IMG/VR virus record: IMGVR_UViG_2895476258_000012
Coordinates: 54-64,053 of that record
Reading direction: 5' to 3' (one strand)
Length of the DNA: 64,000 nucleotides
Source of the DNA: a virus
Lineage: Duplodnaviria; Caudoviricetes
In this document: positions 3,562 through 26,041 of the stretch, in pieces
Layout of the letters: every line of letters starts with the position of its first letter
Numbering within the stretch: the stretch's first letter is position 1
Made by a program: the position numbers and the translations under genes
Notes under the pieces: model-generated
Told to the model about the DNA's origin: nothing
The model's database searches: none
The model's input: only the letters and a program-made list of their open reading frames with translations

Positions 3562-3583
3562 GCGCAAGCAAAAGAACTTGCGC
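3562..3583. promoter_or_regulatory. Palindrome GCGCAAG-N8-CTTGCGC overlapping the putative -35 of the Y RNA/rsr promoter
   Basis: TTGCGC at 3578-3583 and TACGGT at 3603-3608, upstream of Y RNA unit 1. Confidence 0.5.
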
Positions 3584-3642
3584 TCTCATCGGCCTCCCAT
3601 GCTACGGTTTCGATCAGTTAAACCCCTCCGAAATCCACCATC

Positions 3643-3752
3643 CCGTCGGGCTCGGAGCGGGTACGGATCGAATGGCGTCGGTTATCTCTTTCTGCAAAAA
3701 AGATCACACCCGGTGCCGCTTCTCACATCCGTATCCGCTCCCTGCTCGACGG
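3643..3752 (+). ncRNA. Y RNA-like unit 1 (no tRNA-like domain)
   Basis: Terminal stem CCGTCGGGCTCGGAGCGGGTACGGAT / ATCCGTATCCGCTCCCTGCTCGACGG; motifs CGGATCGAA-N5-TCGGTTATC and CACATCCG; upstream of the TROVE gene. Confidence 0.75.
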
Positions 3753-3762
3753 TCGTCGGCGC

Positions 3763-3916
3763 GGTTCGGAGAGGGCACGGGTCGAAGTTCGTCGGTTACC
3801 ACTTCTAATGGGGCGGTCGCAGGTTCGAGTCCTGCCCGGGGCTAACGCTCCGGTAGCTCAGTTGGCAGAGCACCTAAACGCCGGTGAACATCCCACATCC
3901 GTGTCTTCTCCGAACC
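3763..3916 (+). ncRNA. YrlA-like Y RNA unit 2 (permuted tRNA mimic)
   Basis: 18-bp terminal stem; T arm GCAGG-TTCGAGT-CCTGC (3819-3835) precedes a closed acceptor-like hairpin and D arm TAGCTCAGTTGGCAGAGC (3854-3871). Confidence 0.85.
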
Positions 3917-3928
3917 ACACCGATCCAC

Positions 3929-4080
3929 TCGTCAGCCCTATCGGGAGCACGGGTCGAATTCTGTCGGTTACCACACAGGTAAAGGTTCGACTCCTTTCCG
4001 GCCCACTCGTGGGCCAGACGCCCAGGTCGGCTGGGCACCCGGCAGGAGCCCCACATCCGTGCCACCGGCAAGGCTGACGA
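3929..4080 (+). ncRNA. YrlA-like Y RNA unit 3 (divergent D arm)
   Basis: Same 5' and 3' motifs; T arm AAAGG-TTCGACT-CCTTT (3981-3997), hairpin GGCCCAC/GTGGGCC; ends TCGTCAGCC / GGCTGACGA pair. Confidence 0.75.
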
Positions 4081-4084
4081 TCAC

Positions 4085-4229
4085 GGGGAGTGCGGGTCGA
4101 AGTCGTTCGGTTATCCTCCGGAACCGGCGGTCGCGGGGTTCAAGTCCCCGCTGCGCGGCCTGGCCGCGCGTAGCTCAGCGGTAGAGCTCCGGTCTTGATC
4201 CGGTCGGCACACCCATATCCGCCCTCCCC
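4085..4229 (+). ncRNA. YrlA-like Y RNA unit 4 (permuted tRNA mimic)
   Basis: T arm CGGGG-TTCAAGT-CCCCG (4134-4150), D arm TAGCTCAGCGGTAGAGC (4171-4187), ACCGG/CCGGT anticodon-stem equivalent, conserved Ro-stem motifs. Confidence 0.85.
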
Positions 4230-4234
4230 TCCCC

Positions 4235-4259
4235 CACATCCGCCACCTGGCGGGTCGAA
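4235..4259 (+). promoter_or_regulatory. Circularly permuted Ro-binding helix in the rsr leader
   Basis: CACATCCGCC-ACCT-GGCGGGTCGAA: the 3' Y motif comes first and the 5' motif second, 7 nt before RBS GGAG. Confidence 0.5.
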
Positions 4260-4276
4260 CCCCTTGGAGATCCTTC

Positions 4277-5956
4277 ATGGCCCGCAACCGTGACCCTCTC
4301 GCAAGCGTTTCCGCATTCGCCACCCCGCAGACCCAGCGGCTGCCCGGACGCACCGAGCAGGTGAAGAACGCGGCGGGCGGCTATGTCTTCGACAAGGACC
4401 TGTGGCGCAAGCTGGAGGACTTCCTGATCCTCGGCACCACTGGCGGCACCTACTACGTCAGCGAGAACAAGCTGACCGCCGACAACGCCGACGTGCTGTT
4501 CAACGCGATCGCCGAGGACGGCCCGCGCGTCGTCGAACTGCTCACCGACATCTCGACCGCACGCCCGCCGCGCGCCCCGAAGCAGCGCCCGGCGCTGTTC
4601 GCGCTGGCCGCCGCTTACGCCAAGGGCGACCAGGCCACCCGCCAGGCGGCCAAGCTGGCGCTGCCAAAGGTGGCGCGCACCACCGACCACCTCGCCCAGT
4701 TCTTCGGCTACTACAAGAACCTCGGCGGCAAGCCGACCGCTCACGGCACCGCGCCGATCGTCGGCCGGTCACTGCGCACGGCGCTCGCCTCCTGGTTCCT
4801 GTCGGACCGCGCGGACACCGTCGCGTTCAAGGTGTGCAAGGCCCGCCAGCGGAAGACCCCGCAGGGCGAGGCGTTCGACCTGCGCGACGTGCTGCGCATC
4901 GCCCACCCCAAGGCGGACAGCCCGGAGCGGGCGCGGCTGTTCGGCTGGATCGCCGGGAACGTCTCCGACGAGGACGCGCGCGACGTGCTGGAGTCGGTGG
5001 ACCGGTTCCTGACCGCCAAGGCCGTCACCACGGCCCGCGAGGCGATCCGCGTGGTCAACGAGCGCAAGGTGCCGTGGGAGTTCCTACCGGACGCGATGCT
5101 GCGCGAGCCTGCCGTGTGGGACGCCCTGATCGACACGGTCGGCATGACCGCGCTCATCCGCAACCTGTCCCGCATGACCCGCATCGGCACGCTCAAGCCC
5201 ATGAGCGACGCCACGCGGCGCGCGATCGCCCGGCTCACCAACCAGGAGGCGCTCCTTCGGGCGCGCATCCACCCCATGGACGCCTTCCTCGCGCTGCGCG
5301 TCTACGGCTCCGGCCGGTCCCAGCCCAACCCGCGCGCCGACGCGCAGACGTGGACGCCGGTCCCGGCGATCCTCGACGCGCTGGAGGAGACGTACGAGCT
5401 GTCGTTCGGCAGCGTCGAGCCCTCGGGCCGGCGACTGCTGGTCGCGGTGGACTCGTCCAGGTCGATGTCCGGGAATTGGGGCGGCAGCGGTGTCGTGGTC
5501 GGCGGTTCGTCGATCGGTTCGCCGTACGAGGTCGGCTGCGCTCTGGCCGTCATGCTGGCCCGCATCGAGAAGGGGAACGTGCACGTCATCGACGTGGACA
5601 CCAGTGTTCACGCCTCGAAGGTGACGCCGCGCACCAACCTGCGGGAGATCAAGAGCTGGCGGCCGTCCGGCGGCGGCACCGACCTGTCGTTGCCGTTCCG
5701 GTGGGCGCGCGAGCAGCGCATGGCGGTGGACGGGGTCGTCCTGTTCACTGACAACGAGACGTGGGCCGGGCGGTCTCACCCGTCGCAGGAGCTCGAAGCC
5801 TACCGGCGTACGGTGGCGCGTGACGCCCGCGTGATCGTGGCGGCGATGACGGCGGCGGGCTACTCGATCGGCGACCCTGCCGACGCGGGGGTGCTGAACG
5901 TGGCGGGCCTGGACGCGTCGCTGCCACTGATCGTGAACGGGTTCATCCGCTCATAG
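4277..5956 (+). CDS. rsr: TROVE-domain Ro60 ortholog (Rsr) with C-terminal vWA domain
   Basis: QVKNAAGGYVF, FLILGTTGGTYY, DVLRIAHPK, VPWEFLP, GMTALIRNL, RIHP, LLVAVDSSRSM (MIDAS-like), GGTD, VLFTDNETW. Confidence 0.95.
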   Translation: MARNRDPLASVSAFATPQTQRLPGRTEQVKNAAGGYVFDKDLWRKLEDFLILGTTGGTYYVSENKLTADNADVLFNAIAEDGPRVVELLTDISTARPPRAPKQRPALFALAAAYAKGDQATRQAAKLALPKVARTTDHLAQFFGYYKNLGGKPTAHGTAPIVGRSLRTALASWFLSDRADTVAFKVCKARQRKTPQGEAFDLRDVLRIAHPKADSPERARLFGWIAGNVSDEDARDVLESVDRFLTAKAVTTAREAIRVVNERKVPWEFLPDAMLREPAVWDALIDTVGMTALIRNLSRMTRIGTLKPMSDATRRAIARLTNQEALLRARIHPMDAFLALRVYGSGRSQPNPRADAQTWTPVPAILDALEETYELSFGSVEPSGRRLLVAVDSSRSMSGNWGGSGVVVGGSSIGSPYEVGCALAVMLARIEKGNVHVIDVDTSVHASKVTPRTNLREIKSWRPSGGGTDLSLPFRWAREQRMAVDGVVLFTDNETWAGRSHPSQELEAYRRTVARDARVIVAAMTAAGYSIGDPADAGVLNVAGLDASLPLIVNGFIRS

Positions 5957-5986: not shown

Positions 5987-6015
5987 GGCCCGCCTCCCAA
6001 AGTGGGAGGCGGGCC
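5987..6015. terminator. Intrinsic terminator hairpin after rsr (possibly bidirectional)
   Basis: 13-bp perfect stem GGCCCGCCTCCCA / TGGGAGGCGGGCC between convergent genes. Confidence 0.75.
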
Positions 6016-10101: not shown

Positions 10102-10857
10102 TCACACCACCCGCAGCAGTGCCGCCCACGTCTTCGGCCCGCACACACCATCGGTGGGCAGCTTCGCGGCCTTCTGGAACTCCTTCAGCGCGTCGTACAG
10201 CGGGTCACCAAACTGCGTGTCGTCCACGCCGCCGTTCAACCCGTAGTCCCGCGCGTGCAGCAGGTAGAACAACGTCTTGACGTGCCAACGCAGCGGGTCG
10301 TCTGCCGTTTTGCCTGCGCCGTGACGCAGCGTGGGCAGTTGCTTCACGATCTCCTCCATCCAGGTCAGCTCAGGGGCCGGCGCGGGCTTCACGCCCGAAT
10401 AGGCGGGGTATCCGTAGCCGGAGATGCAGGCGTGGGAGCGGCGGTGCCGCATGACGCGGTTGCTGGTGTTGCCCTCGATCGTCGTGATCGTGCCGTCGCG
10501 GTGGACCGCTTCGACGATGCCGACGTGATCGATCGCGCCGATCATGTTCTTGCTTCCGGCCCAGTCGAAAAAGACGATCGCGCCGCGCCGTGGCGCCTGC
10601 CCCCAGCGGCCCCTGTCCTTGAACCAGTCGGCGTAGGTGGGGGTGTAAGCGAAATCGCCTACGTCAGGCAACAGCTTCGCCTTGTCGGCGGCCCAGGCGA
10701 GGAACATCGCGCACCACGGCTGCTTGGCCCACCAGTCCGGCTTGTCGTGCCGCTCGGCCCACCACGCGCCGTACCGGGTCCAGCCGTCGCGGCGCTCGCC
10801 CTGGCCGAGTTCGCCGCGGACGATGTCGAGCAGGACGTCTTCAGGCCGCTTCGGCAT
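10102..10857 (-). CDS. Endolysin, CHAP domain plus peptidoglycan-binding domain
   Basis: PWCAMFLAW...DHVGIVE...TIEGNT, and EFQKAAKLPTDGVCGPKTWAAL. Confidence 0.9.
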   Translation of the reverse strand: MPKRPEDVLLDIVRGELGQGERRDGWTRYGAWWAERHDKPDWWAKQPWCAMFLAWAADKAKLLPDVGDFAYTPTYADWFKDRGRWGQAPRRGAIVFFDWAGSKNMIGAIDHVGIVEAVHRDGTITTIEGNTSNRVMRHRRSHACISGYGYPAYSGVKPAPAPELTWMEEIVKQLPTLRHGAGKTADDPLRWHVKTLFYLLHARDYGLNGGVDDTQFGDPLYDALKEFQKAAKLPTDGVCGPKTWAALLRVV

Positions 10858-11089
10858 GCGTCACCTCCCCCGCGTCGATCCAGACGATCTGTGTCGCTCC
10901 CCCGTGGCCGTGGATGGCTTCGACGTCGTCGAGGCAGCTCCAGTGGACGAGGGAAGGTCGTGCGCCGCGCCAGCGCACCGAGACGGAACCGTCCGGCCAG
11001 AGCACGCCGTCTGCCACCCGGCCGGTGCCGGAGATGCCGCTGACGTCGTGGTCGCGTTGCAGGAAGAACAGGCGTGGATAGATGTTCAC
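10841..11089 (-). CDS. Phage hypothetical protein (82 aa)
   Basis: RDHDVSGISGTGRVADGV..PDG..HGHGG; coupled into the lysis region. Confidence 0.6.
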   Translation of the reverse strand: MNIYPRLFFLQRDHDVSGISGTGRVADGVLWPDGSVSVRWRGARPSLVHWSCLDDVEAIHGHGGATQIVWIDAGEVTHAEAA

Positions 11090-11298
11090 TGCTCCTCCTG
11101 GGATTCGTCTTCGACGACGGAGCCGGGCTCTTGTGGCACCTCGTCCTGGGGCGGGTCGCCGGCGGTCAGTGCTGCGGCGTTGTAGGGCGCAAGCGGCAGC
11201 GCCTCGTGTTCAGGCATGGGGAACCTCGGTAAGGGGTCGATTTGATGAGATCAATTCGGTGGTGTCGCCACTGATCAAGGCGACGAAGGGCTGCCGCG

Positions 11299-11595
11299 TC
11301 AGCCTTGGGTGAGCTGGATCAGCGCGATCACCGCGCTGGCCACGGTCACCAGCAGGCCGACGACGGCGATGATCTGCCGGGTGCGCTCGGTGAGCTGCGC
11401 GTTCGTGACGGCGGTTTTCTCGACCTCCGCCAGCCGCATCTCCAGGCCGCCAACCTGTTCGACCAGCGCGGCATGCCGGTCCTCAACCTGCTTGAGCTGA
11501 TGCAAGACCAACCTCATCTGCCCATCAGTCCGCTCGAACCCGACCTCAAGCAGACGACGCAACTCGGCCAGCGACAGCGCCAGGTTTTCATCCAT
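11299..11595 (-). CDS. Coiled-coil protein with a C-terminal TM helix (lysis-cassette membrane protein)
   Basis: MDENLALSL...RQIIAVVGLLVTVASAVIALIQL. Confidence 0.6.
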   Translation of the reverse strand: MDENLALSLAELRRLLEVGFERTDGQMRLVLHQLKQVEDRHAALVEQVGGLEMRLAEVEKTAVTNAQLTERTRQIIAVVGLLVTVASAVIALIQLTQG

Positions 11596-12262
11596 CAGTC
11601 GGCCCCCACGGCTTGCGGCCCATCCACGTCGCCGGCGGCTTGATGTCGAAGTCGGGTGTGACGGGTCCGGCACGTCCGGCGCGGTAGTAGTCCACGCTCC
11701 TGCGGCGGGCCGCCACCCGGGCCGAATCCAGCCGGGTCAGCGTCTTGACCGGCTCCAGCGGATCTTCAGGCACGACCACGTCCAGCCCCACATAGGCGAC
11801 GACGTCCTGACGGAACTGCCGGTTCTCCGGCACCATGCGGACGCGGTGGGTCTTGACCGCCTCGATCCTGGCCAGGTGCGCGGCGAGCCGATCGGCGTCG
11901 GACACCCCAAGAGTCCACGTCGTCGGCAGCCCGTGCGTGGCCTCCAGCTGCGCGGCCACCACAGGATTCAGCCGGGCGAGCGCGTCGTCCGACGACGGGA
12001 TCCACGGCTCGTGCAGCACTACGTCCAGCAGCGTGTCCATGTCGTCGGGGTCGATGCCATACTCGGCGCACCGCCACTCGAACGTGCTGTGCGGAATGAT
12101 GTGCACGTGGGCGACGCCGTCCGGCCGCACCCGGCTAATCCCCCACATCGGCTCAGCGCCGTCGTGGCCGGCACCCGGGCCGGGCTGCTCTCCCCCTGCC
12201 TGCAACAGGCTGGTCGTGCTGTAGCCAAGCTCGGCATCCCAAATGGTCCAGATTTCGGCCAC
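11588..12262 (-). CDS. Tail-associated protein, paralog B of 15213..15704
   Basis: FEWRCAEYGID..DTLLDVVLHEP; follows minor tail protein B. Confidence 0.7.
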   Translation of the reverse strand: MAEIWTIWDAELGYSTTSLLQAGGEQPGPGAGHDGAEPMWGISRVRPDGVAHVHIIPHSTFEWRCAEYGIDPDDMDTLLDVVLHEPWIPSSDDALARLNPVVAAQLEATHGLPTTWTLGVSDADRLAAHLARIEAVKTHRVRMVPENRQFRQDVVAYVGLDVVVPEDPLEPVKTLTRLDSARVAARRRSVDYYRAGRAGPVTPDFDIKPPATWMGRKPWGPTDG

Positions 12263-12286
12263 GCGGCCACCCCCTTGTGATGATCG

Positions 12287-15076
12287 TTAATGGCGGTGCG
12301 ACCACCAATAGAACGCCTTGCCGCTGTACACGCCGCCGCCCGACGACCAGCCGAACGAGAAGTCGGTCTGATTGCTGAGGTCCAGACACCAGTAGAAATT
12401 CGGGTTGGCCGCACCGTCTCGGACCGTCGAGACGGGCCCCATATTGGAGGCCATGGTCGGCCCGTAGTGGATGGTCACGCCCCCGGTGTCCGGCGGGACC
12501 ACGCCGCTACCGGCGTGCACGGTGTCGTACGGGTCGGCAGTATTGGTGTCCCACACACGGCCGCGCAGATACCAGCGGCCCGAGCTGTTGCAGTGGATGT
12601 AGGACTGGCTGGAGGAGAAGCCGTCGTCGTAGCCGAACCGGCCGTAGCCTTCGGCGACGTCGAGGCCGCCGCCACGGCGGTTGGAGTTCGAGGCGTTGCG
12701 GATGCCGAGCCGGACGAGTCCTGCGGCGACCTGGAGCTCGGCGCGGGCGGTGCCGCCCGAGTTGGTGCCCGACGTGATGAACGTGGTCGTCTCGCCCGGA
12801 TACAGGCCGTCCACGGCGTAGAAGCGCGAGTAGTTGGTGTTGCCGAGCCCGCCCGGGTAGAAGCGCAAGTCGAGCGTCGACGAGTCGAGCACAAACCGCT
12901 GCCCTGTCGCCGAGCTGCGGACAATCGAGCCCGTAATGGTCTTGCCGTTGATCGCGTCAGCGGTGATCTTGTCGGCGGTGACCGATCCGGCGGCCAACTT
13001 GTCGGCCGTGATCGCCGAAGCGGCAACGTGCCCCGCCTGGATTGAGCCAGCCTGGATCTTGTCGGCCGTGACTGCGTTGGCGTTGATGTGGCCCGCGTTG
13101 ATCGCGAGCGCCTGGATCAGACCGGCCGTGACCGTCCCGGCAGTGATCTTCGCCTCGCCGGGGATGGTGCCGTCGATGATGTGCGTCGCGCCGTCGATCA
13201 CCTGGCCGATCACGTCGGTGTCCACCAGCGGCTTCGTCTGCGCCGTGACGTGCGCGGACTCCCCCGAGATGTTGCCCGACCGGTCGAGCGCGACCAGCCA
13301 CAGCTCCCGATCCGTGTTGTACGGCTGGCCCGGCACCACGGCGGTGCCCGCCCGCTCCAGCCACTCGACGGACTTGCCTGCGTCCTGAGAGTCGAGCGGA
13401 TCCTTCATCATCACCAGGACGCGCGCGAAGTCCTTCGGCATGCCGGTGCCCGAGCTGGTCAGCCCATCCCAGGCCACCCGGAAGATGCCCAGCCGCGAGT
13501 CCACGACGGGCGTGGACGGCTGCGGAGGCGGCGTCTCATCATCGGGGATGACGATCACCGCTGAGACCGCGAGCTGCCCCTTGACGCCCTCGTTGGTGGC
13601 GCGCACGCCGAACCGCCACGACGACTTCGGCGTCAACGGACTGTAGGAGATCGACGTGCCGTCCGTGTGACCCAGCACCCGCTGGGCGCCCGTGCCCGGC
13701 GGCGTCTGCCCGATCAGCTCATAGCCATCCACCTGCAACGACGTCCCGTTGACATCCGTGGTGACCGGCACCCAAGACACGATGATCAGCCCATGACTGT
13801 ATCCCTCGTCATCCAGGTACGCCGACGGGGACACGATCAGGCCCGTCGGCGCAGCCGGGACGCGGTCCTTGGATTCCGGCGCGGGCTCGCCACCGTTGCC
13901 GCCCTCAGAGACGCCACCAGTCAGGATGCCCGCCGCCCGCCGGGCAATCCTGATGTCTCTTTCCAGGAAACGATCATTCAGGGTGACGTTGCCGCCGATC
14001 AGGCCGTCCCCGCCCACGGACAGCGTGATCTGCCTGACCCGCAACCCCTGCATGACCGCCTGGTCGCCAGGGGCGCGCACCGTGTCGCCCACCCGGTAGT
14101 CCACGAACGGCAGGAACCGGGCCGCGTACGGCTTGATCTGCCGGGTGAGCTGCACCCGCTCCCCCGACGCCCGATCCAGCGCGTACTGAGCCAGCAGCCG
14201 GGCCGTCCCCTCATCCTTCACGCCGCCCTGGCTCTGGTACGCCTCCCACCGGCCCCACGGCCGCAGCGCGGCCGGGTTGGTGACCTCGACGGACAGGCCC
14301 TCTTCGCCGGTGATGAGGATCGCCGACGCGGCGTCCTCGAACGTGGCGTCGTCAGGGGCCTGGTCGATATCGCGCCCCAACCGCAGTTCGACCGGGCTGG
14401 GGCCAGTGGAAAGCTGGCGGCCGAGCGTGGAGTTCTCGTTGAACACCTGCAAGGTTCGGCCCTGCATCTGCCAGTCGCACACGCCCTGCTCGGACAGGTT
14501 CAGCAGCAACTGGAGCAGGTCGGTGCCGGGTTCCAGCCCCAGCGTAAGGGTCGCCGACCACGGGTGTCCGGCCGAGTCCTCGAAGGCGTCGAAGTCGTAG
14601 CTGAGGCCGGGCAGCGCGCCGCGGCCCTGGCCTTCGTCGATGACTTGACGCAGGATGTCGCCCACTTTGGCGGCCGGGAACTGGCGCTTGCCGTCGACCA
14701 TGCCGAGGCCGGGGTAGAGCACCAGCTTGCGCAACTGCCACGCCCAGCCGGGCATGTCGAACGACAGCGCCGCCATCAGGTCCGTCGTGTCGGACGCCCG
14801 CTTGATCCGCAGGAACCGCGCGTTCGCGGGTTTCGCCCACCCGCCGCCGCCCGCCGACCATTCGACCGCGACCTCACACGGCGACGCCAGCCACTGCGCG
14901 CCGGCCGCATGAGCTGAGTAGGACAGCCGCAAGCTGGAGACGTCGTTGAGCGGAAGGCCCGTTTCCCAGCCGAGATGCTGGCCGAGCACGCCGAGACGGG
15001 CACCGTTCGGCTGGTAGGCGACCAGACGGAGCCCGTAGATGTCAGGCTTACCGGGGATGATCACCTGCTGCGGCAT
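12287..15076 (-). CDS. Large minor tail / hub protein B with FN3 domains (~929 aa)
   Basis: Start MPQQVIIPGK at 15076; LRLVAY.PNG...PLNDV N-terminus, FN3-like PAAPTGL segments, AVTADKI-type repeats. Confidence 0.85.
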   Translation of the reverse strand: MPQQVIIPGKPDIYGLRLVAYQPNGARLGVLGQHLGWETGLPLNDVSSLRLSYSAHAAGAQWLASPCEVAVEWSAGGGGWAKPANARFLRIKRASDTTDLMAALSFDMPGWAWQLRKLVLYPGLGMVDGKRQFPAAKVGDILRQVIDEGQGRGALPGLSYDFDAFEDSAGHPWSATLTLGLEPGTDLLQLLLNLSEQGVCDWQMQGRTLQVFNENSTLGRQLSTGPSPVELRLGRDIDQAPDDATFEDAASAILITGEEGLSVEVTNPAALRPWGRWEAYQSQGGVKDEGTARLLAQYALDRASGERVQLTRQIKPYAARFLPFVDYRVGDTVRAPGDQAVMQGLRVRQITLSVGGDGLIGGNVTLNDRFLERDIRIARRAAGILTGGVSEGGNGGEPAPESKDRVPAAPTGLIVSPSAYLDDEGYSHGLIIVSWVPVTTDVNGTSLQVDGYELIGQTPPGTGAQRVLGHTDGTSISYSPLTPKSSWRFGVRATNEGVKGQLAVSAVIVIPDDETPPPQPSTPVVDSRLGIFRVAWDGLTSSGTGMPKDFARVLVMMKDPLDSQDAGKSVEWLERAGTAVVPGQPYNTDRELWLVALDRSGNISGESAHVTAQTKPLVDTDVIGQVIDGATHIIDGTIPGEAKITAGTVTAGLIQALAINAGHINANAVTADKIQAGSIQAGHVAASAITADKLAAGSVTADKITADAINGKTITGSIVRSSATGQRFVLDSSTLDLRFYPGGLGNTNYSRFYAVDGLYPGETTTFITSGTNSGGTARAELQVAAGLVRLGIRNASNSNRRGGGLDVAEGYGRFGYDDGFSSSQSYIHCNSSGRWYLRGRVWDTNTADPYDTVHAGSGVVPPDTGGVTIHYGPTMASNMGPVSTVRDGAANPNFYWCLDLSNQTDFSFGWSSGGGVYSGKAFYWWSHRH

Positions 15077-15216
15077 CCGTTCCCCTCCCCCCGGGGCTGG
15101 GCCTGGACCTGTTCCACGGCGGCGGCAAGGAGCGCGTTCTCGTACATGAGCTCGTCGCAGCGCCGCCGGTAAGCCGCCACCACGGCGGCCAGATCTACGT
15201 GCAGATCGCAATTCAC
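15061..15216 (-). CDS. Small coiled-coil tail-region protein (51 aa)
   Basis: GTGA overlap with the upstream stop; VDLAAVVAAYRRRCDELMYENALL. Confidence 0.5.
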   Translation of the reverse strand: MNCDLHVDLAAVVAAYRRRCDELMYENALLAAAVEQVQAQPRGEGNGCRSR

Positions 15217-15704
15217 TTGCGCCCCTCGCCTCTCGCCTGAGCCATCCGGTGCCGGTCGATCTCCATCCGCAGCTCCGCTGTGCGGATCGGGTCGATCCGG
15301 CAGGCGTCGCGGATCGCCTGAAGCGGGTCCACGGCTCGGGCGTTGCTGTGCTTCCGCTGGGCGGCGACCGCGCCGTGCCGCTCGCGACACGCAGCGATCT
15401 GCTGGCGCACCAGCTCCCGCGCGGCAGCCGCATCCGTGAGCGACGGCGTCAGCGGCGGCAGCACGCCGGCGGACTGAAGCTCGATCAGCAGCGGCTCATG
15501 CACCAGCACGTCGAGGACTTCATCGACGTCGGTCAGCCCGTACTCAGCGGCCCGGTACTCCACGGCCTCTTTCGGCACGTAGTAACGCCACTGCCCATCC
15601 GGTGCAACCTCGACCGGCACCTCGTAGACGATCACCCAGTACGGGGTGCGGCCGTCGTCCCCCGTGGTCTCCTCAACCCCGGTCACCGTCCACTCGTGCG
15701 CCAA
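15213..15704 (-). CDS. Tail-associated protein, paralog A
   Basis: VEYRAAEYGLTDVDEVLDVLVHEP; follows minor tail protein A. Confidence 0.7.
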   Translation of the reverse strand: MAHEWTVTGVEETTGDDGRTPYWVIVYEVPVEVAPDGQWRYYVPKEAVEYRAAEYGLTDVDEVLDVLVHEPLLIELQSAGVLPPLTPSLTDAAAARELVRQQIAACRERHGAVAAQRKHSNARAVDPLQAIRDACRIDPIRTAELRMEIDRHRMAQARGEGRK

Positions 15705-15732
15705 CGCCTCTCCCTCCTTGCGGGCGGGAGCG

Positions 15733-18456
15733 TCATGCGCGCCACGCCCAGATCATTGCTGTCGCCGAACCGGCTGCGCCGCTGCTGTCGCACCGGATGG
15801 TGAAGCCCGACGTGCTGCGGGCCGTCATGTACGTGGTGACCACGCCTGAACCGGCGTAATGCAGGCTGACCACGGCGAACGGGATCGACGTCATGACGGG
15901 GGCGCTCCATGCGATGGTGCCCAGGCTCGTGCCGATGGTGATCGTCACCGACTTCATGATCAGCCCGGCTTCGGCGCCGCTGTGCGTCCACATGCCCCGG
16001 TACTCGGCCGCCGCCTGCGTGAACCGGAACCGGTTCAACGCCGGAGTTGGGTCGTTGTAGCCGATCTCCAACTCGGCGGGCTTGGCGAACATGTAGCCGC
16101 CCGCGCCCAGGTTCGGGCTCGATGTCACGTCGAAGATCTGCATCCGGTACTCGTCGCCCCGCAACCAGGTGACCGAGCGCCGGTTATTGCCGGCGTTCAG
16201 CCCGGACACCGACACGATCGCGCCATCGGTGTCGCAGTAGATCCTGGCGAAGTTCGTGCCGGTCCCTGGCATGAACCTGACTTCCGGGTCAGTCGAGCCT
16301 GCTGGGTTGACGATGATGCGCCGCCCCGTGGCGCCGGTGGCGAGCTGCCCGACGATCGACACCGCGCCTGTCGCCGACGACACCGCGACCGTCTGAACGC
16401 TGGAGGCGTCGTACGCTTCCAGACCCGTAGCGTTGATCTCGACTCGCGCGCCGGCCGGGTTGCCGGCCACGATCCGCGTCGCCAAGGCGAGCACGGCTTC
16501 GAGCTTGTCGGCTGTCACCGCGTTCGCCGCGATGTGGCTGGCTTCGATCGCGCCGACCGCGATCTTCGTGGCCGTGACGGCGTTGGCTACCAGGTTGCCG
16601 GTCGTGATGCTGCCATCTGCGGCGTCGCCGGAGACGAGCTGCACGGCCTGGATGGTTGCCGACGCGCTGCGGGCGGACTCGTTGCCGCTGTAGTCGATCG
16701 CCGAGAACGCGAACTTCCGGTCGACGCCGTACGGCAAACCGGGCACGACGATCGAACCCGCGGACTCCAGATACCCGATCTCCGACCAGCCCGGCGCAAG
16801 CGGGTCCTGCACCCAGACGCGTACCCTCGCGAAGTCCGACGGCATCGGCTCGCTGCCGACGCCGACGCCGTCCCATTCGACGTGGACCACGCCGAGTCTC
16901 GTGGACAGCACGGGCGCGGTCGGCACGGGCGGCGCGTCGGCGTCGTCCGGGATCGTCACCGCGACCGACGAAGAGAAGGGCCCCTTCTTGCCGAGATTGA
17001 TCGCGCGCACCTTGAACTGGTACTGCTGCCCCACGGTGAGAGGGCTGTAAGTGGCGTTGGTGTCGCCCGCCTCGGTGAGCGCGATCAGGAACCACAACGC
17101 CCCCACATCGTTGACCCGGGCGTACACCTCGTAGCCGCCGACGTTCAACGCGACGCCGCTGGTGTCCTGGGTGACTGGGTTCCAGCTCACCGACACCTGG
17201 CCCTGCGGGAAGCCGCTGGAGTCGATGTAGGCGGCCGGGTTGACCAGCAAACCGGTGGGCGCGGCCGGGGTCCTGGGCGCCGGGCTTTCCGGTGCGGGCT
17301 TGGCTCCGGAGCCGCCGTCCGCCGTGCTGCCACCGACGATCCCGGCCGCGCGGCGCGACAAGCGGATCTCCCGTTCGAGCAGCCTGTCGTTGAGGACGAC
17401 GTTGCCGCCGAGCACGCCCTTGGCGTCCCGTGTCACCGTCATCTGCCGGACGCGCAGGCTTTCCATTACGCCGTTCGTGCCGGGGGCGAGGATGCGGTCG
17501 CCGGGCCGGTAGTCGCGCCACGGCAGCCATCGCGTGTCCGGGCCGATGACGATGCTGCGGGTGCGCTGCACCCGTTCCGCGCCGGAGCGGGCGAGCGCCG
17601 CGTCCGCGAGCAGGATCGCTGTCCCCGGATCGGACACGCCGCCCTGGCCGACGTAGGTCTCCCACTTACCCCACGGTCCGTGGTTGGAGCTGCTGACGGT
17701 GATCTGGAATCCGTTGTCGCCGCGCACCAGGACGGCACTCGCGCGGTCCTCCAGGGTGCCGGTTTCGGGCGCTTCGCCGATGTCCCTGCCGTATCGAAGA
17801 TCGACCGGCGCGGCTCCGCTGGCGAGATCACGCCCCAGCTCGATGTCCGGGTTGAACAGCTGCACCGTCCGCCCGGACGTGCGGAAATCGAGGACTCCTT
17901 GTTCGGCCAAGTTGATCAGGCAGGTGAGCGCGTCCATGCCAGGCTCATAGTAGATACTGAGGATCTTGCTCCAGGACTGGCCGGCGCTGTCGAGTGTGGG
18001 CGTGAAGTCCCACGCGACGCCTGGCACAACTCCCCTGGCCTGCGCCTCAGCCAGAAACGTTTGGAGGATCGCGCCTGCTGTGGTCGTCAGGAAAGCGCGC
18101 TTACCGTCCACCAGTGGGGCGCTGCCAGGGTAGAGCACCACCTTGCGTAGCTGCCAGATCCAGCCGGGCAGCTCGAACTGCGTCACCCCGGCCTGGTCGG
18201 TGCCGTCGCTGCGCCGCCTGATGAGCAGGAACCGCGAGTCGCACGCCTCGGTCCACGTGGTGCCGTCGTCGGACCATTCGACGGCGACCTCGCATGGCTG
18301 GGCGAGCAGGTCGGCGTTCGTCGCCTCGCTGCTGTGGCTCAGCTTCAACGCTGGTACATCGTTGAGTGGGCCGGCGATCTCCACGCTCAGAGGATGCGGG
18401 AGTGTGCCGAAGGGGTCCCCATTCGGGGTATGCACAACGAGCCGAAGGTTGAACAC
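15733..18456 (-). CDS. Large minor tail / hub protein A with FN3 domains (907 aa)
   Basis: LRLVVHTPNG...PLNDV, PAAPTGL, AVTATKI/AVTADKL repeats; colinear with protein B. Confidence 0.85.
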   Translation of the reverse strand: MFNLRLVVHTPNGDPFGTLPHPLSVEIAGPLNDVPALKLSHSSEATNADLLAQPCEVAVEWSDDGTTWTEACDSRFLLIRRRSDGTDQAGVTQFELPGWIWQLRKVVLYPGSAPLVDGKRAFLTTTAGAILQTFLAEAQARGVVPGVAWDFTPTLDSAGQSWSKILSIYYEPGMDALTCLINLAEQGVLDFRTSGRTVQLFNPDIELGRDLASGAAPVDLRYGRDIGEAPETGTLEDRASAVLVRGDNGFQITVSSSNHGPWGKWETYVGQGGVSDPGTAILLADAALARSGAERVQRTRSIVIGPDTRWLPWRDYRPGDRILAPGTNGVMESLRVRQMTVTRDAKGVLGGNVVLNDRLLEREIRLSRRAAGIVGGSTADGGSGAKPAPESPAPRTPAAPTGLLVNPAAYIDSSGFPQGQVSVSWNPVTQDTSGVALNVGGYEVYARVNDVGALWFLIALTEAGDTNATYSPLTVGQQYQFKVRAINLGKKGPFSSSVAVTIPDDADAPPVPTAPVLSTRLGVVHVEWDGVGVGSEPMPSDFARVRVWVQDPLAPGWSEIGYLESAGSIVVPGLPYGVDRKFAFSAIDYSGNESARSASATIQAVQLVSGDAADGSITTGNLVANAVTATKIAVGAIEASHIAANAVTADKLEAVLALATRIVAGNPAGARVEINATGLEAYDASSVQTVAVSSATGAVSIVGQLATGATGRRIIVNPAGSTDPEVRFMPGTGTNFARIYCDTDGAIVSVSGLNAGNNRRSVTWLRGDEYRMQIFDVTSSPNLGAGGYMFAKPAELEIGYNDPTPALNRFRFTQAAAEYRGMWTHSGAEAGLIMKSVTITIGTSLGTIAWSAPVMTSIPFAVVSLHYAGSGVVTTYMTARSTSGFTIRCDSSGAAGSATAMIWAWRA

Positions 18457-18507
18457 CGCACCCCCTTGATACTCATGAGGGCGCCGTGGCCGGGCCGTCG
18501 CCTGTCC

Positions 18508-19866
18508 CTATCGTCGCGGCCCTGCACCGAGTTCAGCGAGCCCCTGACGGAATTGCGCGACCACAGCCGCTTGGGGATACGAGCGCTCCAAGAGGGAAGC
18601 CAGATCTGTGCTTCTGCTAAAGATCGCCGCAGCGTAGCGCGGTGTTGAGATCGCGGCCGATCCGTGAGCGACGGCTTGCTCCGCGTTGCCTAGCCGGGCG
18701 CAGGCGACGCCCAGGTCCAGCGCGGCAATCGCTCGTCTGGTGGGAGACGCCTGCGGGTCCCGTTCGTATACCTGCATGGCTTGCTCAGCGAAGTCGCGGG
18801 CCTGTTCGACGTGGCCGAGCCACAAGCTCGACGTCGCGGCGACCGACCAGACTCGTGCGGCATCAGCGCTGAACAACCCCATCGAGTGTGGTGAGAGGTG
18901 TTCAGCCTGGTCTCGCAACGTCTTCAACATGTCAGAAGCCGGTCCAGAGCGGCCGAGCCGGGCATACCCTCGGACCAGTTGCCCAGTAAGGCGCGCGTGC
19001 GCAGCACTTCCACGAGAGGCTAGGGCCGCACCCTGCTGCGCAGCGCTCAGCGCTTCGTCTGGCCGGTCGGCGTACAAGAGGGTTGTGGCCTCGACATCCC
19101 ACGCCCACGCCACCGCTTCATGATGATCCGCTTCGCCGGCGTGGTGGCGGGCATCAGCAGCGTAGGCGAGCGAAGCACGGGCATCTCCGCGGTCGTGGGC
19201 GGCCCACGCCAGGATCAGCGACAGCCAAGCCGCAGCGATGTACAACTCGCGACGCTGCTTGAGCGTCATACGTAGTTGCAGCAGGTGGGCGACCTGACGG
19301 CGGTCACCGCGTGCCGACCGCCACAGCTCATCTGCGCTGTAGCGGGCGTAGTGGAGCCCGTAATCACCGATGACCTTGTGCAGGTACGCGAGACTGCTCG
19401 GTCCGAGATCAGTCTCCTCGCTGCGGCGGGTCAGCTCGCGCGCCTCGTGTTCAGCGCTCGTGATCAGCAATTCGGGAGTGGCAAGAGCGGCAACACCGAG
19501 ACGCAGAGCGTCACGACGATTCGTAGGATCACCTCCAGGTGCGCGCGGTCGGCGATCTGTCGCGTCCTCCCCATCGTCGCCAGAGTCCTTCACGTCCAGA
19601 GTAGGCAGCGAGTCCGTCGCAGCGACAGAGGGCTGAAACTCCGCAATTCGATCAGACGTCTCACCAGCGTCGTAAGCCGCAATGAGTTCTCCGTCGGCGT
19701 TCGTGGCGGCGTCCAACGCTACGACAATCTCTCTGGACGGCCATTTCCGGTCTTTTTCCAGATCGTCGATATAGCTCTTGCCGACGCTGGCCGACCGGGC
19801 AACATCCCGCAGCGATTGAGAGCCGCGCAGACGCCGCAATGCCTCGCCGAACGTCTCACCAGCCAT
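18508..19866 (-). CDS. XRE-family HTH regulator with helical-repeat C-terminus
   Basis: FGEALRRLRGSQSLRDVARSASVGKSYIDDLEKDRKWPS; RRDALRLG linker. Confidence 0.85.
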   Translation of the reverse strand: MAGETFGEALRRLRGSQSLRDVARSASVGKSYIDDLEKDRKWPSREIVVALDAATNADGELIAAYDAGETSDRIAEFQPSVAATDSLPTLDVKDSGDDGEDATDRRPRAPGGDPTNRRDALRLGVAALATPELLITSAEHEARELTRRSEETDLGPSSLAYLHKVIGDYGLHYARYSADELWRSARGDRRQVAHLLQLRMTLKQRRELYIAAAWLSLILAWAAHDRGDARASLAYAADARHHAGEADHHEAVAWAWDVEATTLLYADRPDEALSAAQQGAALASRGSAAHARLTGQLVRGYARLGRSGPASDMLKTLRDQAEHLSPHSMGLFSADAARVWSVAATSSLWLGHVEQARDFAEQAMQVYERDPQASPTRRAIAALDLGVACARLGNAEQAVAHGSAAISTPRYAAAIFSRSTDLASLLERSYPQAAVVAQFRQGLAELGAGPRR

Positions 19867-20806
19867 ACCGCCGCCACCCGCCTGACCCGTGCCCGCCATG
19901 TCCGCCGTGTCCGCTGATAGGTGGCGGACATGCGGCGGACAGGCGATCTCTAGACCTGACCGTTCGTGGCGACAACGCTACTCCTGAGCGCGCAAACGCC
20001 CTGCTGAATCGGCAGCAAACAATCCCATTCGAGATCAAAAATCGACGCCCCGACCGGTTTTTCCTACCCCATCGGAGATGTTCCACCGTGCTCCCATCTG
20101 ACCTAAACGCCCTACTACCTCCTACGGTTCGCCAGAAAAGCGATGTCCTCTACTCATGGAGAGCACGCGAGAACCGCGATCGGGGCGCGGGCGGCGTGAC
20201 GAGCGAACTGGAGCGGGCCGGCATCCTGCTGCGTGACGCGATGGCCATGTTCGCCCCTGGAGCACGGGGCTGCATTCGCCGCGTGAGCCTCGACCGAGAG
20301 GCCCGTGAGCCGAGCTACCTCGAAGGACCCGTACTGATCGAAGCGCACAACGACCGGAAATCCGGCACCGTCGTATTCGCGGCGAAAGCCAGCGGCTCCC
20401 GCCGCTCACCTGATCGACCCGGACTGGTGGTCGGGACCACGACCGCTCCGGAGGCTGCGAATGCCGCCGCAGCAGCTCCCCTCCCTGCCACCAGCTCTGG
20501 GTCCCCATCCGCGTCCGGCATCCCTCCGTGGCCCATGCCGGGCAGTCCGGTCTCATCCGGGTGAGACCGGCCGTACTACCTCCACCGCCTCCGTGGGTGG
20601 AGAGGGTGGCCAGGACGCGACGCCCTCGTCCGCGTCCTGGCCACCTATGCCTTTCCGCCCTCAACGAGCCCAGCTCAGCAAGCTCGGGAGGGCGGGTCGC
20701 AACCCCGTGGACGGCCAGCCTGTGCTGGAGATTTCCGGCGGTGCGGACAGCGTCGGCCGTCCACGGCCCGCAAGAAACAGCAATTCTCAAAACGAAAGGA
20801 CCAGTC

Positions 20807-21145
20807 ATGGCCGACACGAAAGACAGTTGCGTTCCTCTGGTGCAACGCGTCAACGACCACATCGAGCTTCGAGACCAGAGTCTCGGCGACAAGTCGCCCG
20901 TTCTCGCCGCGTCGCCCGAAGAGTGGAAGGACTTCCTTGCTTCAGTAGAGGACGGGACGCCGAGCGCGGGCGCGGTACGGGCGAGGACCGCCCAGGACGG
21001 CGTGACCACCATCTGGCGCGTCGATGCGTCCGAGGAGCCCTTGACGCTCACGGCCAGTTCCTGGACCCAGTTCGAGGAACACGTCAAGCGCGGCGACTAC
21101 GCCATCGAGAAGCTCCCCCGCCAGGCGGCGGACACGTCCGCCTGA
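20807..21145 (+). CDS. DUF397-like protein (tandem domains)
   Basis: CV.....IELRD....SPVL..SPEEWKDFLASVEDG and LTLTASSWTQFEEHVKRG; RBS GAAAGGA. Confidence 0.65.
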   Translation: MADTKDSCVPLVQRVNDHIELRDQSLGDKSPVLAASPEEWKDFLASVEDGTPSAGAVRARTAQDGVTTIWRVDASEEPLTLTASSWTQFEEHVKRGDYAIEKLPRQAADTSA

Positions 21146-21285
21146 CGTTCGACCTTTCCAGCCTGGCAAGCAGCCCCCGCCTGCCCTACCAGGCTCCCAG
21201 GCCCTGGATGTGCCCGGCATCTGGGGCGCGGAGGGCCGAGGCCGCTGCCTCCTGTCACGGTCTCGGCCCTCTCCAACCGCCCGTG

Positions 21286-22155: not shown

Positions 22156-22180
22156 CGCCACCCCTATTTCTGACATCGCA

Positions 22181-23846: not shown

Positions 23847-23895
23847 GCACCCCCTTGCGGAGTCGTGCGGAAGGCGGTGGACGGCGGGCGAAGTG

Positions 23896-24456: not shown

Positions 24457-24686
24457 ACCCCTTCATCGTGCGCGGTGCGTTCCTCGGCCCCCGACGCAAT
24501 TCCGCGTAGACCCCCAATTCTGTGCCTACGCGCCACGACGCTGAGTGTCCACGGACACTCTTAGGTGAAATGCGTGTCCCGCAGGAGTCGTCTTGAGGTC
24601 TGACCTGCGCTCCATCCAGCCCGGCTACCACGATCTGCATCGCCGCGATCGACGAATGGCTGTGAACCCCACTTCTGCAGCACGTT

Positions 24687-26003: not shown

Positions 26004-26018
26004 CACCCACACCTCCTT

Positions 26019-26036
26019 GCAAGCGAAAAAGCTTGC
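26019..26036. promoter_or_regulatory. Palindromic operator GCAAGC-N6-GCTTGC
   Basis: Perfect site GCAAGCgaaaaaGCTTGC between the chaperone gene and the TMP1 RBS. Confidence 0.6.
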
Positions 26037-26041
26037 GTTGC

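What the first reader, a model, noticed from the sequence alone, without database searches (positions are those of the whole stretch)
3643..5956. Prophage-encoded Ro60 preceded by a tandem array of four covarying Y RNAs
Seen: four self-closing hairpin units, each with 5' CGG(G/A)TCGAA-N5-TCGGTTA(C/T)C (3664, 3778, 3950, 4093) and 3' CCGG..CA(C/T)ATCCG (3724, 3894, 4052, 4214). The variable N5 covaries with its partner: UGGC/GCCG, GUUC/GAAC, UUCUG/CAGGA, GUCG/CGGC. Units 2-4 hold a permuted tRNA module (T arm, closed acceptor, then D arm). Known: YrlA-class Y RNAs mimic tRNA and lie beside rsr, usually one or two per locus and often with rtcB. Inference: a phage carrying four diversified Y RNAs and no rtcB in view could use them as decoys for host anticodon nucleases or PrrC/PIN/HEPN-type defences, or as interchangeable adaptors that tether Ro60 to different nucleases.
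Basis: partly seen in the sequence, partly recalled or inferred. Interest (0 to 1): 0.85.

Follow-up and report, generated by a model that had tools for sequence, protein, structure and literature searches.

The report
Four Y RNAs before prophage Ro60
A Ro60 (Rsr) RNA-binding protein gene carried on an integrated phage in a Nonomuraea-type actinomycete is preceded by four real, structurally conserved Y RNA genes; this is an enlarged form of a known RNA-protein partnership, and it is common in this bacterial family rather than special to this phage.

Summary
Window 3652-4230 carries four tandem hairpin RNAs on the + strand, directly upstream of a full-length Ro60/Rsr gene (4277-5956). All four share the Y-RNA stem (5' CGG(G/A)UCGAA, 3' CA(C/U)AUCCG) at the stated coordinates. 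Unit 1 is a YrlB-like hairpin and units 2-4 are YrlA-like tRNA mimics.

Orthologous copies show strong compensatory covariation. A covariance model built from unit 2 hit only places directly upstream of rsr, on the same strand (219 of 219 hits in 815 kb).

The cassette lies inside an att-bounded, integrase-carrying prophage-like element, so "prophage-encoded" is supported.

Four-unit arrays are not unusual here. By my tally about 25 of 80 Streptosporangiaceae rsr loci have four units and about 21 have three, mostly in non-phage contexts. Two IMG/VR proviral contigs also have four. Earlier notes of this scan report multi-unit Y RNA arrays beside Ro60 on other DNA.

Extras:
- Unit 2 is a complete rearranged tRNA with an anticodon arm, 79% identical to the host tRNA-Arg(UCU).
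- A permuted Ro-binding hairpin sits in the rsr leader in 42 of 81 loci.

The decoy idea is untested and weakly supported. Verdict: real, an expanded variant of the known Rsr-YrlA/YrlB system.

The parts
3564..3581 (.). Palindrome GCAAGC-N6-GCTTGC between the stop of the GntR gene and the array. It may be a terminator or an operator.
   Evidence: The 14.3-Mb genome has 16 copies, and 4 of them are in this window (3564, 26019, 27193, 55725). It is conserved upstream of the array in L001, L002, L007 and L072. Its function is inferred.
3601..3609 (+). Putative extended -10 promoter element (TGCTACGGT) for the array-rsr transcript.
   Evidence: The block CCCATGCTACGGTTTCGATCAG is conserved in window-type loci even where the sequence further upstream diverges. 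Other loci have TGACAT-N17-ATAAT at the same place. The sigma-70 consensus scan found nothing. Inferred only.
3652..3744 (+). Y RNA unit 1: a YrlB-like long hairpin with a pyrimidine-rich apical stem-loop and the shared Ro-binding stem.
   Evidence: Fold -43.7 kcal/mol, z -6.1. Model R1 gives 56.3 bits. In 45 orthologues, 13 of 23 pairs show compensatory changes.
3766..3914 (+). Y RNA unit 2: YrlA-like. It has the Ro-binding stem plus a complete rearranged tRNA: a 7-bp acceptor closed by a loop, a D arm, an anticodon arm with loop CUUCUAA, variable loop CGGUC and a T arm.
   Evidence: Rfam YrlA 45.1 bits, E 1e-8. R1 gives 160.9 bits. 26 of 45 pairs are compensatory and 0 of 500 shuffles match. 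The re-ordered sequence is called tRNA-Arg(tct) by ARAGORN and is 57/72 identical to the host tRNA-Arg(UCU).
3938..4072 (+). Y RNA unit 3: a divergent YrlA-like unit with a T arm, a closed acceptor-like hairpin and a degenerate third hairpin in place of the D arm.
   Evidence: R1 gives 60.0 bits. Rfam YrlA partial match, 17.3 bits. Fold z -3.8. In 25 orthologues, 13 of 32 pairs are compensatory.
4085..4230 (+). Y RNA unit 4: YrlA-like of the Salmonella-type layout, with a T arm, a closed 7-bp acceptor and a D arm. The anticodon-stem equivalent runs on into the Ro-binding module, so there is no anticodon loop.
   Evidence: Rfam YrlA 28.9 bits, E 5e-4. R1 gives 83.3 bits. In 35 orthologues, 14 of 28 pairs are compensatory, including the D stem.
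4235..4259 (+). rsr leader hairpin: the two Ro-binding motifs in reversed order (CACAUCCGCC-ACCU-GGCGGGUCGAA), 6 nt upstream of the Shine-Dalgarno GGAG (4266-4269).
   Evidence: Motif positions. The same element, in the same position before GGAG-AUG, is present in 42 of 81 loci. Binding by Rsr and autoregulation are inferred.
4277..5956 (+). rsr: a Ro60 orthologue of 559 aa, with a TROVE ring and a vWA domain carrying a DxSxS MIDAS motif.
   Evidence: Pfam. PHROG 850 'RNA-binding protein', 1.6e-59. PDB 2NVO 2.9e-77 and 1YVP 2.9e-73. DSSRS read from the sequence at about 5446.
5987..6015 (+). Terminator-like G+C-rich hairpin after rsr (GGCCCGCCUCCCA...UGGGAGGCGGGCC, then GUUGAGUU).
   Evidence: Read from the sequence. 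A near-identical hairpin follows rsr in L005. The scan tool did not list it because the U tract is short.
10102..41281 (-). Context: the prophage lysis, tail, capsid, portal and terminase genes of the element that carries the cassette.
   Evidence: Endolysin 10102-10857, tail proteins, P22-type coat 29880-30803, minor head 32014-34680, portal 34719-36293 and terminase 39767-41281.

Best explanation
This is a self-contained rsr operon of the Rsr-YrlA/YrlB kind. A promoter near 3600 probably drives one transcript that carries four Y RNAs, a leader hairpin, rsr and a terminator.

The precursor would be processed into one YrlB-like hairpin RNA of about 90 nt and three YrlA-like RNAs of 135-150 nt. 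In each RNA the 5' and 3' ends pair to form the conserved helix that Rsr binds. The distal module differs between units:
- unit 1: a pyrimidine-rich hairpin;
- unit 2: a complete tRNA-Arg(UCU)-like body;
- units 3 and 4: tRNA-like bodies without an anticodon loop.

These modules would couple or gate the Rsr ring to different partners, such as PNPase or tRNA-binding enzymes. The three closed 7-bp acceptor stems are predicted RNase P sites, as in M. smegmatis YrlA. The permuted Ro-binding hairpin next to the ribosome-binding site would let free Rsr repress its own translation.

In this strain the cassette is cargo near the attL end of a temperate prophage integrated in the 3' end of a GDPD gene. 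Its position and orientation suggest expression in the lysogen. The same cassette sits in ordinary chromosomal, plasmid and other proviral contexts across the family, so its function is not phage-specific.

Shown here: gene identity, RNA structures, covariation, exclusive linkage to rsr, element boundaries, and how common the arrays are. Inferred: co-transcription, processing, Rsr binding, partner diversity, autoregulation.
For: Rsr identity.

Unit structure and covariation.

Linkage to rsr: all 219 R1 hits in 815 kb lie on the rsr strand within about 650 nt upstream of rsr, and exactly four are in the window. There are none near the rtcB loci, the host flank or the attR contig.

Precedent: in M. 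smegmatis, YrlA and YrlB lie upstream of rsr, are processed from one precursor and are bound by Rsr. YrlA is cut by RNase P because of its 7-bp acceptor stem. Additional Y RNAs are proposed there to widen the range of Ro60 partners (PMC4201824). That paper's YrlA probe contains UUACCACUUCUAAUGG, which is identical to window 3794-3809.

Element boundaries:
- Host homology with L072 and L005 ends at the GDPD 3' end.
- An 83-nt copy of that end lies on C224, next to a tyrosine integrase and then a host MFS gene.
- L005 keeps only the array and rsr between the same att repeats.
- L067, L072 and L075 also have rsr followed by a related endolysin gene.

Leader element: present in 42 of 81 loci.
Against: - There is no expression, processing or binding data for this organism.
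- No unit reaches Rfam's YrlA gathering score.
- No sigma-70 consensus promoter was found.
- The right end of the element is on another contig, so a single continuous element is inferred and a tandem composite (an AICE-like module plus a phage) is not excluded.
- rsr has host-like GC3 (0.94, against 0.80-0.90 for the phage genes). It may therefore be a recently captured host gene.
- The leader hairpin stem is nearly invariant, so it gives no covariation support.
Confidence: 0.8

Rival explanations
1. Phage counter-defence decoys. The prophage supplies tRNA look-alikes, held or protected by Rsr, that soak up host tRNA-directed nucleases (anticodon nucleases, VapC/MazF-type or HEPN/PIN enzymes), or sense their action, during infection or lysogeny.
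For: - The cassette is inside a prophage.
- Unit 2 carries a full anticodon arm whose 7-nt loop CUUCUAA is identical to that of the host tRNA-Arg(UCU), and its body is 79% identical to that tRNA.
- The loop frame C-U-NNN-A-A is conserved, while the first two triplet positions are the most variable unpaired columns of the alignment.
- Ro60 genes occur in 354 deposited phage genomes.
Against: - The same three- and four-unit arrays stand next to ordinary chromosomal genes in most of the 80 loci. Herbidospora shows conserved synteny.
- The M. smegmatis YrlA probe sequence in PMC4201824 contains the same loop.
- Units 3 and 4 have no anticodon loop.
- The triplet changes between close relatives while the body stays the same, which also fits neutral drift.
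- No tRNA-targeting defence gene was identified beside the cassette.
Confidence: 0.1
2. A cis-acting leader rather than separate small RNAs. The four units stay part of the rsr mRNA 5' UTR and act as a multi-site Rsr-binding platform that sets rsr translation or stability.
For: - All units and rsr are on one strand, with no terminator-like sites between them.
- A Ro-binding hairpin abuts the ribosome-binding site in 42 of 81 loci.
Against: - In M. smegmatis the equivalent RNAs are released from the precursor and accumulate bound to Rsr (PMC4201824).
- Each unit closes on itself through its own 5' and 3' ends, with covariation.
- Conserved tRNA-like cores with tertiary-interaction nucleotides are not needed for a simple binding platform.
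Confidence: 0.07
3. A decayed tRNA gene cluster or chance hairpins with no functional tie to Rsr.
For: - The Rfam tRNA model gives weak matches across adjacent units (28 bits).
- The units look tRNA-derived.
Against: - ARAGORN finds no tRNA in the window.
- The shared non-tRNA stem is conserved and covaries in four unit classes.
- Every one of the 219 model hits is directly upstream of rsr on its strand.
- The arrangement is kept across several genera.
Confidence: 0.02

Closest known systems
Mycobacterium smegmatis rsr locus: YrlA and YrlB upstream of rsr (Chen et al. 2014, PMC4201824)
   Same: - The RNAs lie directly 5' of rsr on the same strand, with no rtcR/rtcBA linkage.
- YrlA has a GNCGAA motif, a T arm, a closed 7-bp acceptor stem and a D arm.
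- The published YrlA probe contains the same UUACCACUUCUAAUGG segment as unit 2.
- A second, YrlB-type hairpin RNA is present.
   Different: - Four units here instead of two, three of them tRNA-like.
- The hairpin-type unit is first rather than last.
- The cassette is carried on a prophage.
- A permuted Ro-binding hairpin sits in the rsr leader. I found no description of this in the papers I could read.
Salmonella Typhimurium YrlA/YrlB (Rfam RF02553; structure 6CU1, preprint 10.1101/312249)
   Same: The modular design is the same: a Ro60-binding stem plus a tRNA-like domain whose anticodon-stem equivalent continues into the stem. Unit 4 follows this layout.
   Different: - The Salmonella RNAs lie in the rsr-yrlBA-rtcBA operon under RtcR. 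Here there is no rtcB nearby.
- Salmonella YrlA 'lacks the anticodon loop', whereas unit 2 has one.
- The window units score below Rfam's threshold.
Deinococcus radiodurans Rsr with Yrn1 and Yrn2
   Same: Several small RNAs (four were seen originally) are encoded upstream of rsr. Y RNA tethers Rsr to PNPase (PMC4201824).
   Different: A different Y RNA lineage, with a metazoan-like binding helix and a different order of tRNA-like arms. Only two of the four were confirmed as Y RNAs.
Phage-encoded Ro60 with Y-like RNAs (mycobacteriophages such as ET08; Thermus phage phiLo Yrl1/Yrl2, PMC12135203)
   Same: A phage-borne Ro60 with Y RNAs just upstream. R1 finds two units each in ET08, Sparky and Gordonia phage Cashline.
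   Different: - Those Ro60 proteins are at most 38% identical to this one.
- They have two units rather than four.
- This Rsr belongs to a clade that is mostly chromosomal in Streptosporangiaceae.

Membership tests
Ro60/Rsr (TROVE ring plus vWA) | A TROVE/HEAT-repeat domain followed by a Ro60-type vWA domain, full length. | tested here: met
   Pfam TROVE 8.5e-25 and vWA_Ro60 2.8e-38. Aligns over residues 7-558 with D. radiodurans Rsr 2NVO, E 2.9e-77.
Ro60/Rsr (TROVE ring plus vWA) | A MIDAS motif (DxSxS) in the vWA domain. | tested here: met
   VDSSRSMS read from the translation of window ~5440-5465.
YrlA (Rfam RF02553) | Encoded within 4 kb of rsr on the same strand (criterion of Chen et al. 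2014). | tested here: met
   The units lie 47-625 nt upstream of rsr on the + strand.
YrlA (Rfam RF02553) | A GNCGAAN0-1G motif near the 5' end. | tested here: inconclusive
   Units 2 and 4 have GUCGAAG, which meets it. Unit 3 has GUCGAAUU, with no G within one nucleotide. Unit 1 has AUCGAAUG in the window, but GUCGAA in 42 of the 44 orthologues in the unit-1 alignment.
YrlA (Rfam RF02553) | A tRNA-like domain in the order T arm, closed acceptor-like stem, D arm. | tested here: met
   Met for units 2 and 4 (cmscan alignments; covariation). In unit 3 the T arm and acceptor are kept but the D arm is degenerate.
YrlA (Rfam RF02553) | A score at or above Rfam's gathering threshold (69 bits). | tested here: not met
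   The best scores are 45.1, 28.9 and 17.3 bits. The Rfam model does not allow for the extra hairpin of actinobacterial YrlA. So these are relatives of the family, not hits by Rfam's own rule.
YrlA (Rfam RF02553) | Bound by Rsr in vivo. | not testable with these tools
   This needs immunoprecipitation or EMSA.
YrlB/Yrn2-type Y RNA | [quoted passage not shown] | tested here: met
   Unit 1 fold. The conserved CGGUUAUCUCUUUCU... apex and the covarying stems are seen in 45 loci.
Integrated temperate phage (prophage) | att direct repeats, an integrase, virion and lysis genes, and host genes outside the repeats. | tested here: met
   - attL is at C281:17119-17201 and attR at C224:8291-8373, 84% identical over 83 nt.
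- Tyrosine integrase and then a host MFS gene on C224.
- Capsid, portal, terminase, tail and endolysin genes.
- Host synteny with L072 and L005 stops at attL.
- Caveat: the element spans two contigs.

The most novel reading that the evidence does not exclude
Unit 2, and its orthologues across actinomycetes and their phages, may not be a partial tRNA mimic. It may be a complete tRNA-Arg(UCU)-derived molecule, re-wired so that the Ro60-binding stem enters through a nick in the anticodon stem and the acceptor end is closed. It would then display a genuine U-turn anticodon loop (C-U-NNN-A-A, mostly ending in U36-A37-A38, which looks like a t6A substrate) on the Rsr ring.

The fast-changing triplet would tune which anticodon-loop-directed enzyme, toxin or codon-like partner the Rsr particle senses or absorbs. 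Prophages would spread such cassettes as lysogen-protecting cargo.
Probability: 0.15. Interest if true: 0.8.

Novelty: new variant of a known kind. Interest (0 to 1): 0.45.

Why it matters
Bacterial Y RNAs have been characterised in three species, each with at least two RNAs per locus (PMC4201824). What the tRNA-like module recruits is still unknown.

This family-wide, covariation-backed array offers a natural comparison set:
- one hairpin-type RNA and up to three different tRNA-like RNAs on a single Rsr-binding handle;
- one unit with a full anticodon arm that matches a specific host tRNA;
- a likely autoregulatory Ro-binding site in the rsr leader.

Together these could help find the partners of Rsr particles. 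The data also show that the cassette moves as a unit, between a prophage, a prophage remnant that keeps only the cassette, a plasmid and chromosomal sites. That bears on why phages so often carry Ro60. Standard Rfam thresholds miss all four RNAs, so such loci go unannotated.

Tried and rejected
Searches that gave nothing or little:
- Rfam at gathering thresholds over the whole window: no match.
- ARAGORN on the window: no tRNA or tmRNA.
- Sigma-70 promoter consensus scan over 3300-6300: none. The terminator scan missed the obvious post-rsr hairpin.
- R1 search around the genome's rtcB loci, the rsr remnant on C97, the host flank and the attR contig: no Y RNA.
- R1 on Streptomyces phage MindFlayer (L102): no hit at E up to 0.1. 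I therefore could not check this scan's earlier report of five-unit arrays in a Streptomyces-type phage.
- tblastn of the window's neighbour genes against the IMG/VR loci: no shared neighbours within 3 kb.

Literature limits:
- The supplement of Chen et al. 2014 is not held.
- The 2020 Annual Review and the 2019 Crit Rev review are not held.
- I therefore cannot exclude that multi-copy actinobacterial arrays, or the anticodon-like hairpin, are mentioned there.
- Text searches for three, four or multiple bacterial Y RNAs and for YrlC/YrlD found nothing relevant.

Methods I dropped:
- My first regex-based unit counts and my automatic hairpin picker were noisy. I replaced them with the covariance model and with covariation-defined columns.

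Ideas I rejected:
- That the tRNA-like units serve as the phage attachment site. The att repeat is the GDPD 3' end, about 7 kb from the array.
- That the 5' motif at 4251 starts a fifth unit closing inside or after rsr. There is no 3' motif downstream until 21457.
Full report
**What is there**

The window is high-G+C actinomycete DNA. The closest rsr loci are in Nonomuraea (up to 92% protein identity).

The ORF 4277-5956 (+) is a full-length Ro60/Rsr:
- Pfam TROVE and Ro60-type vWA;
- PHROG 850;
- alignment over its whole length to D. radiodurans Rsr 2NVO (E 2.9e-77) and Xenopus Ro60;
- a DxSxS MIDAS motif readable in the sequence.

Each unit folds as a hairpin closed by its own ends, better than shuffles (z -6.1, -5.0, -3.8, -2.0).

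Rfam finds nothing at gathering thresholds. With permissive thresholds YrlA matches unit 2 (45.1 bits, E 1e-8), unit 4 (28.9 bits) and part of unit 3 (17.3 bits), against a gathering score of 69. ARAGORN calls no tRNA.

**Are the RNAs real?**

I fetched 80 rsr loci from other species (65-92% Rsr identity; Nonomuraea, Streptosporangium, Sphaerisporangium, Microtetraspora, Sinosporangium, Spongiactinospora, Herbidospora, Actinomadura).

| Unit class | Loci aligned | Pairs with compensatory changes |
|---|---|---|
| 2 | 48 | 24 of 41 (RNAalifold structure); 26 of 45 (my completed structure) |
| 1 | 45 | 13 of 23 |
| 3 | 25 | 13 of 32 |
| 4 | 35 | 14 of 28 |

- For unit 2 with my completed structure, 96.5% of cells pair. 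No shuffle out of 500 does as well, and sliding the partners drops pairing to 35-46%.
- In the unit-4 class the D stem also covaries.

A covariance model built from the unit-2 alignment (R1) found 219 matches in 815 kb searched on both strands. Every one lies on the rsr strand within about 650 nt upstream of rsr. Exactly four are in the window: 3766-3914 (160.9 bits), 4085-4230 (83.3), 3938-4072 (60.0) and 3652-3744 (56.3).

**What kind of RNAs?**

- Unit 1 is a long hairpin with a pyrimidine-rich apex. This is the YrlB/Yrn2 type that Chen et al. describe as the second Y RNA of each studied species (PMC4201824).
- Units 2 and 4 have the YrlA order: T arm, closed 7-bp acceptor-like stem, D arm.
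- Unit 3 keeps the T arm and the acceptor hairpin, but its third hairpin has lost D-arm sequence.
- The M. smegmatis YrlA probe printed in PMC4201824 contains UUACCACUUCUAAUGG, identical to window 3794-3809. Unit 2 is therefore the orthologue type of the experimentally studied M. smegmatis YrlA. That RNA is encoded upstream of rsr, processed with YrlB from one precursor, bound by Rsr, and cut by RNase P because of its 7-bp acceptor stem.

**How unusual is four?**

Not unusual in this family. Counting R1 hits per locus by hand, about 25 of 80 loci have four units, about 21 have three, about 20 have two and the rest fewer. The layout is stable, with units at about -615, -505, -335 and -185 from the rsr start.

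- Two IMG/VR proviral contigs (L088, L096) also have four units, and four others have three.
- The isolated phages ET08, Sparky and Cashline have two.
- In a class-wide sample of 150 genomes, 20 had a hit (21 with this genome), mostly one or two each.
- This scan's earlier notes record multi-unit Y RNA arrays beside Ro60 on other DNA. I did not re-test those.

In the papers I could read, bacterial loci are described with 'at least two' Y RNAs. I found no description of three- or four-unit YrlA arrays. Two key reviews and the 2014 supplement were not available.

**Is it prophage-encoded?**

Yes, with one caveat.

- Phage lysis, tail, capsid, portal and terminase genes fill 10.1-41.3 kb on the minus strand.
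- Homology to the host flank of two close relatives (L072, L005) ends at the 3' end of a GDPD gene, 3.7 kb left of the window (C281:17119-17201).
- An 83-nt copy of that gene end (84% identical) lies on contig C224. It has a tyrosine integrase on one side and a high-GC3 host MFS gene on the other.
- The cassette therefore lies 7-9.6 kb inside attL.

Three other genomes (L067, L072, L075) also have array-rsr followed by a related endolysin gene, and L067 also shares the upstream GntR gene. In L005 the same att repeats, with the attR-proximal phage sequence, enclose only the array and rsr. That looks like a decayed prophage which kept this cassette.

The caveat is that the element spans two contigs, so a tandem composite cannot be excluded.

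Against a phage-specific role:
- Most of the 80 loci have unrelated, ordinary neighbours, such as ABC transporters, two-component systems, reductases and TetR genes.
- Herbidospora keeps one chromosomal synteny.
- The nearest Ro60 in deposited phage genomes is only 38% identical.
- rsr has a higher GC3 than the phage genes.

**Extra anatomy found on the way**

*(i) Unit 2 is a whole tRNA, not a partial one.*
- The hairpin before the T arm has a covarying stem and a 7-nt loop C-U-N-N-N-A-A in 41 of 48 loci.
- The first two triplet positions are the two most variable unpaired columns of the alignment, while the flanking C, U, A and A are nearly invariant.
- Two further pairs join the 3' side of this hairpin to the two nucleotides after the D arm (G-C 42 / A-U 6, and G-C 45 / A-U 2).
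- This gives a 5-bp anticodon stem nicked between positions 28 and 29, where the Ro-binding stem enters. It is followed by a class-I-like variable loop, CGGUC.
- Re-ordering the alignment columns accordingly gives sequences that ARAGORN calls as tRNAs in 47 of 48 loci, against 2 of 48 in the native order. The window copy is called tRNA-Arg(tct).
- That re-ordered sequence is 57/72 identical to the host's own tRNA-Arg(UCU). This is the best of 95 host tRNAs, and the anticodon loop is identical. 23 of 48 loci best match an Arg tRNA.
- The published account calls this hairpin the variable region, and says of Salmonella YrlA that it 'lacks the anticodon loop'.

*(ii) The rsr leader.* After unit 4 the two motifs recur in reversed order, making a small Ro-binding-type hairpin 6 nt before GGAG-N7-AUG. 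The same element is present in 42 of 81 loci.

*(iii) A palindrome.* GCAAGC-N6-GCTTGC stands between the GntR gene and unit 1. It has 4 of its 16 genome copies in this window.

**Mechanism**

The best-supported reading (about 0.8) is the known Rsr-Y RNA design, enlarged. One transcript is processed into four RNAs that share an Rsr-binding handle but present different distal modules, and a Ro-binding site in the leader gives feedback. Shown: the structures, their conservation, the exclusive linkage to rsr, and the location in the element. Inferred from the M. smegmatis and D. radiodurans work: co-transcription, processing, Rsr binding and partner recruitment.

The decoy idea (about 0.1) gains something from the tRNA-Arg(UCU)-like anticodon arm. 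It is weakened by the non-phage loci, by the same loop in the M. smegmatis YrlA probe sequence, and by two units that lack an anticodon loop.

**rtcB**

None is near the cassette. The genome has several RtcB homologues elsewhere. One, on C97, is followed by a 37-residue remnant of an rsr C-terminus, with no Y RNA nearby.

**Verdict**

A real, well-supported, prophage-borne rsr operon with four Y RNAs. It is an expanded variant of a known system, common in its bacterial family and not catalogued by Rfam thresholds. Two features deserve experiments: the complete tRNA-Arg-like unit and the leader hairpin.

Noticed in passing
window 3794-3817 with 3871-3873 (unit 2): The 'variable-region' hairpin of the unit-2 class, plus two covarying pairs to the nucleotides after the D arm, forms a 5-bp anticodon stem with a 7-nt loop C-U-NNN-A-A. 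Re-ordered, 47 of 48 orthologues are called tRNAs by ARAGORN. The window copy is 79% identical to the host tRNA-Arg(UCU).
   Followed up: yes
window 4235-4269: A permuted Ro-binding hairpin lies just before the rsr Shine-Dalgarno sequence. It is conserved in 42 of 81 loci and is a candidate Rsr autoregulation site.
   Followed up: partly
window 3564, 26019, 27193, 55725: The palindrome GCAAGC-N6-GCTTGC has 4 of its 16 genome-wide copies inside this 64-kb window. At least two of them lie in intergenic gaps of the phage structural genes, and one lies between the GntR gene and the Y RNA array.
   Followed up: partly
L005:2835-2916 and 5896-5977: In Nonomuraea sp. B1E8 the same GDPD-3'-end att repeats enclose only the Y RNA array and rsr (about 3 kb), plus attR-proximal phage sequence. 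This looks like a prophage remnant that kept only this cassette.
   Followed up: partly
genome contig C97:13403-14626 (L106): An rtcB gene is followed directly by a 37-residue remnant of an rsr C-terminus (70% identical to residues 522-558). No Y RNA was detected there. It suggests a second, decayed rtcB-linked rsr locus in the host.
   Followed up: partly
genome contig C224:1844-2398 (L084): A gene with the HAD domain of 'Swiss Army Knife' RNA-repair proteins (PF18143) lies inside the same integrated element. A UvrD-like helicase gene and the integrase gene are nearby.
   Followed up: no
window 46651-49944, 50188-50769, 59758-62868: A Type ISP restriction-modification enzyme, a small serine resolvase and a DUF3987 primase-like protein lie in the distal part of the element. 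This suggests a mosaic or composite mobile element of more than 76 kb.
   Followed up: no
L008, L014, L034, L040, L045 and others, about 60-100 nt upstream of unit 1: Many related loci carry a TGACAT-N17-ATAAT promoter followed by a palindrome GTGACGCGTCAC ahead of the array. The window-type loci instead share an extended -10 block, CCCATGCTACGGT. The cassette therefore seems to have at least two promoter or operator types.
   Followed up: no
L100:1369-2012 (Gordonia phage Cashline): In this temperate phage the Ro-like gene sits next to the tyrosine integrase gene. Two R1-detected Y RNA units lie in the 640-nt gap between the two genes.
   Followed up: partly
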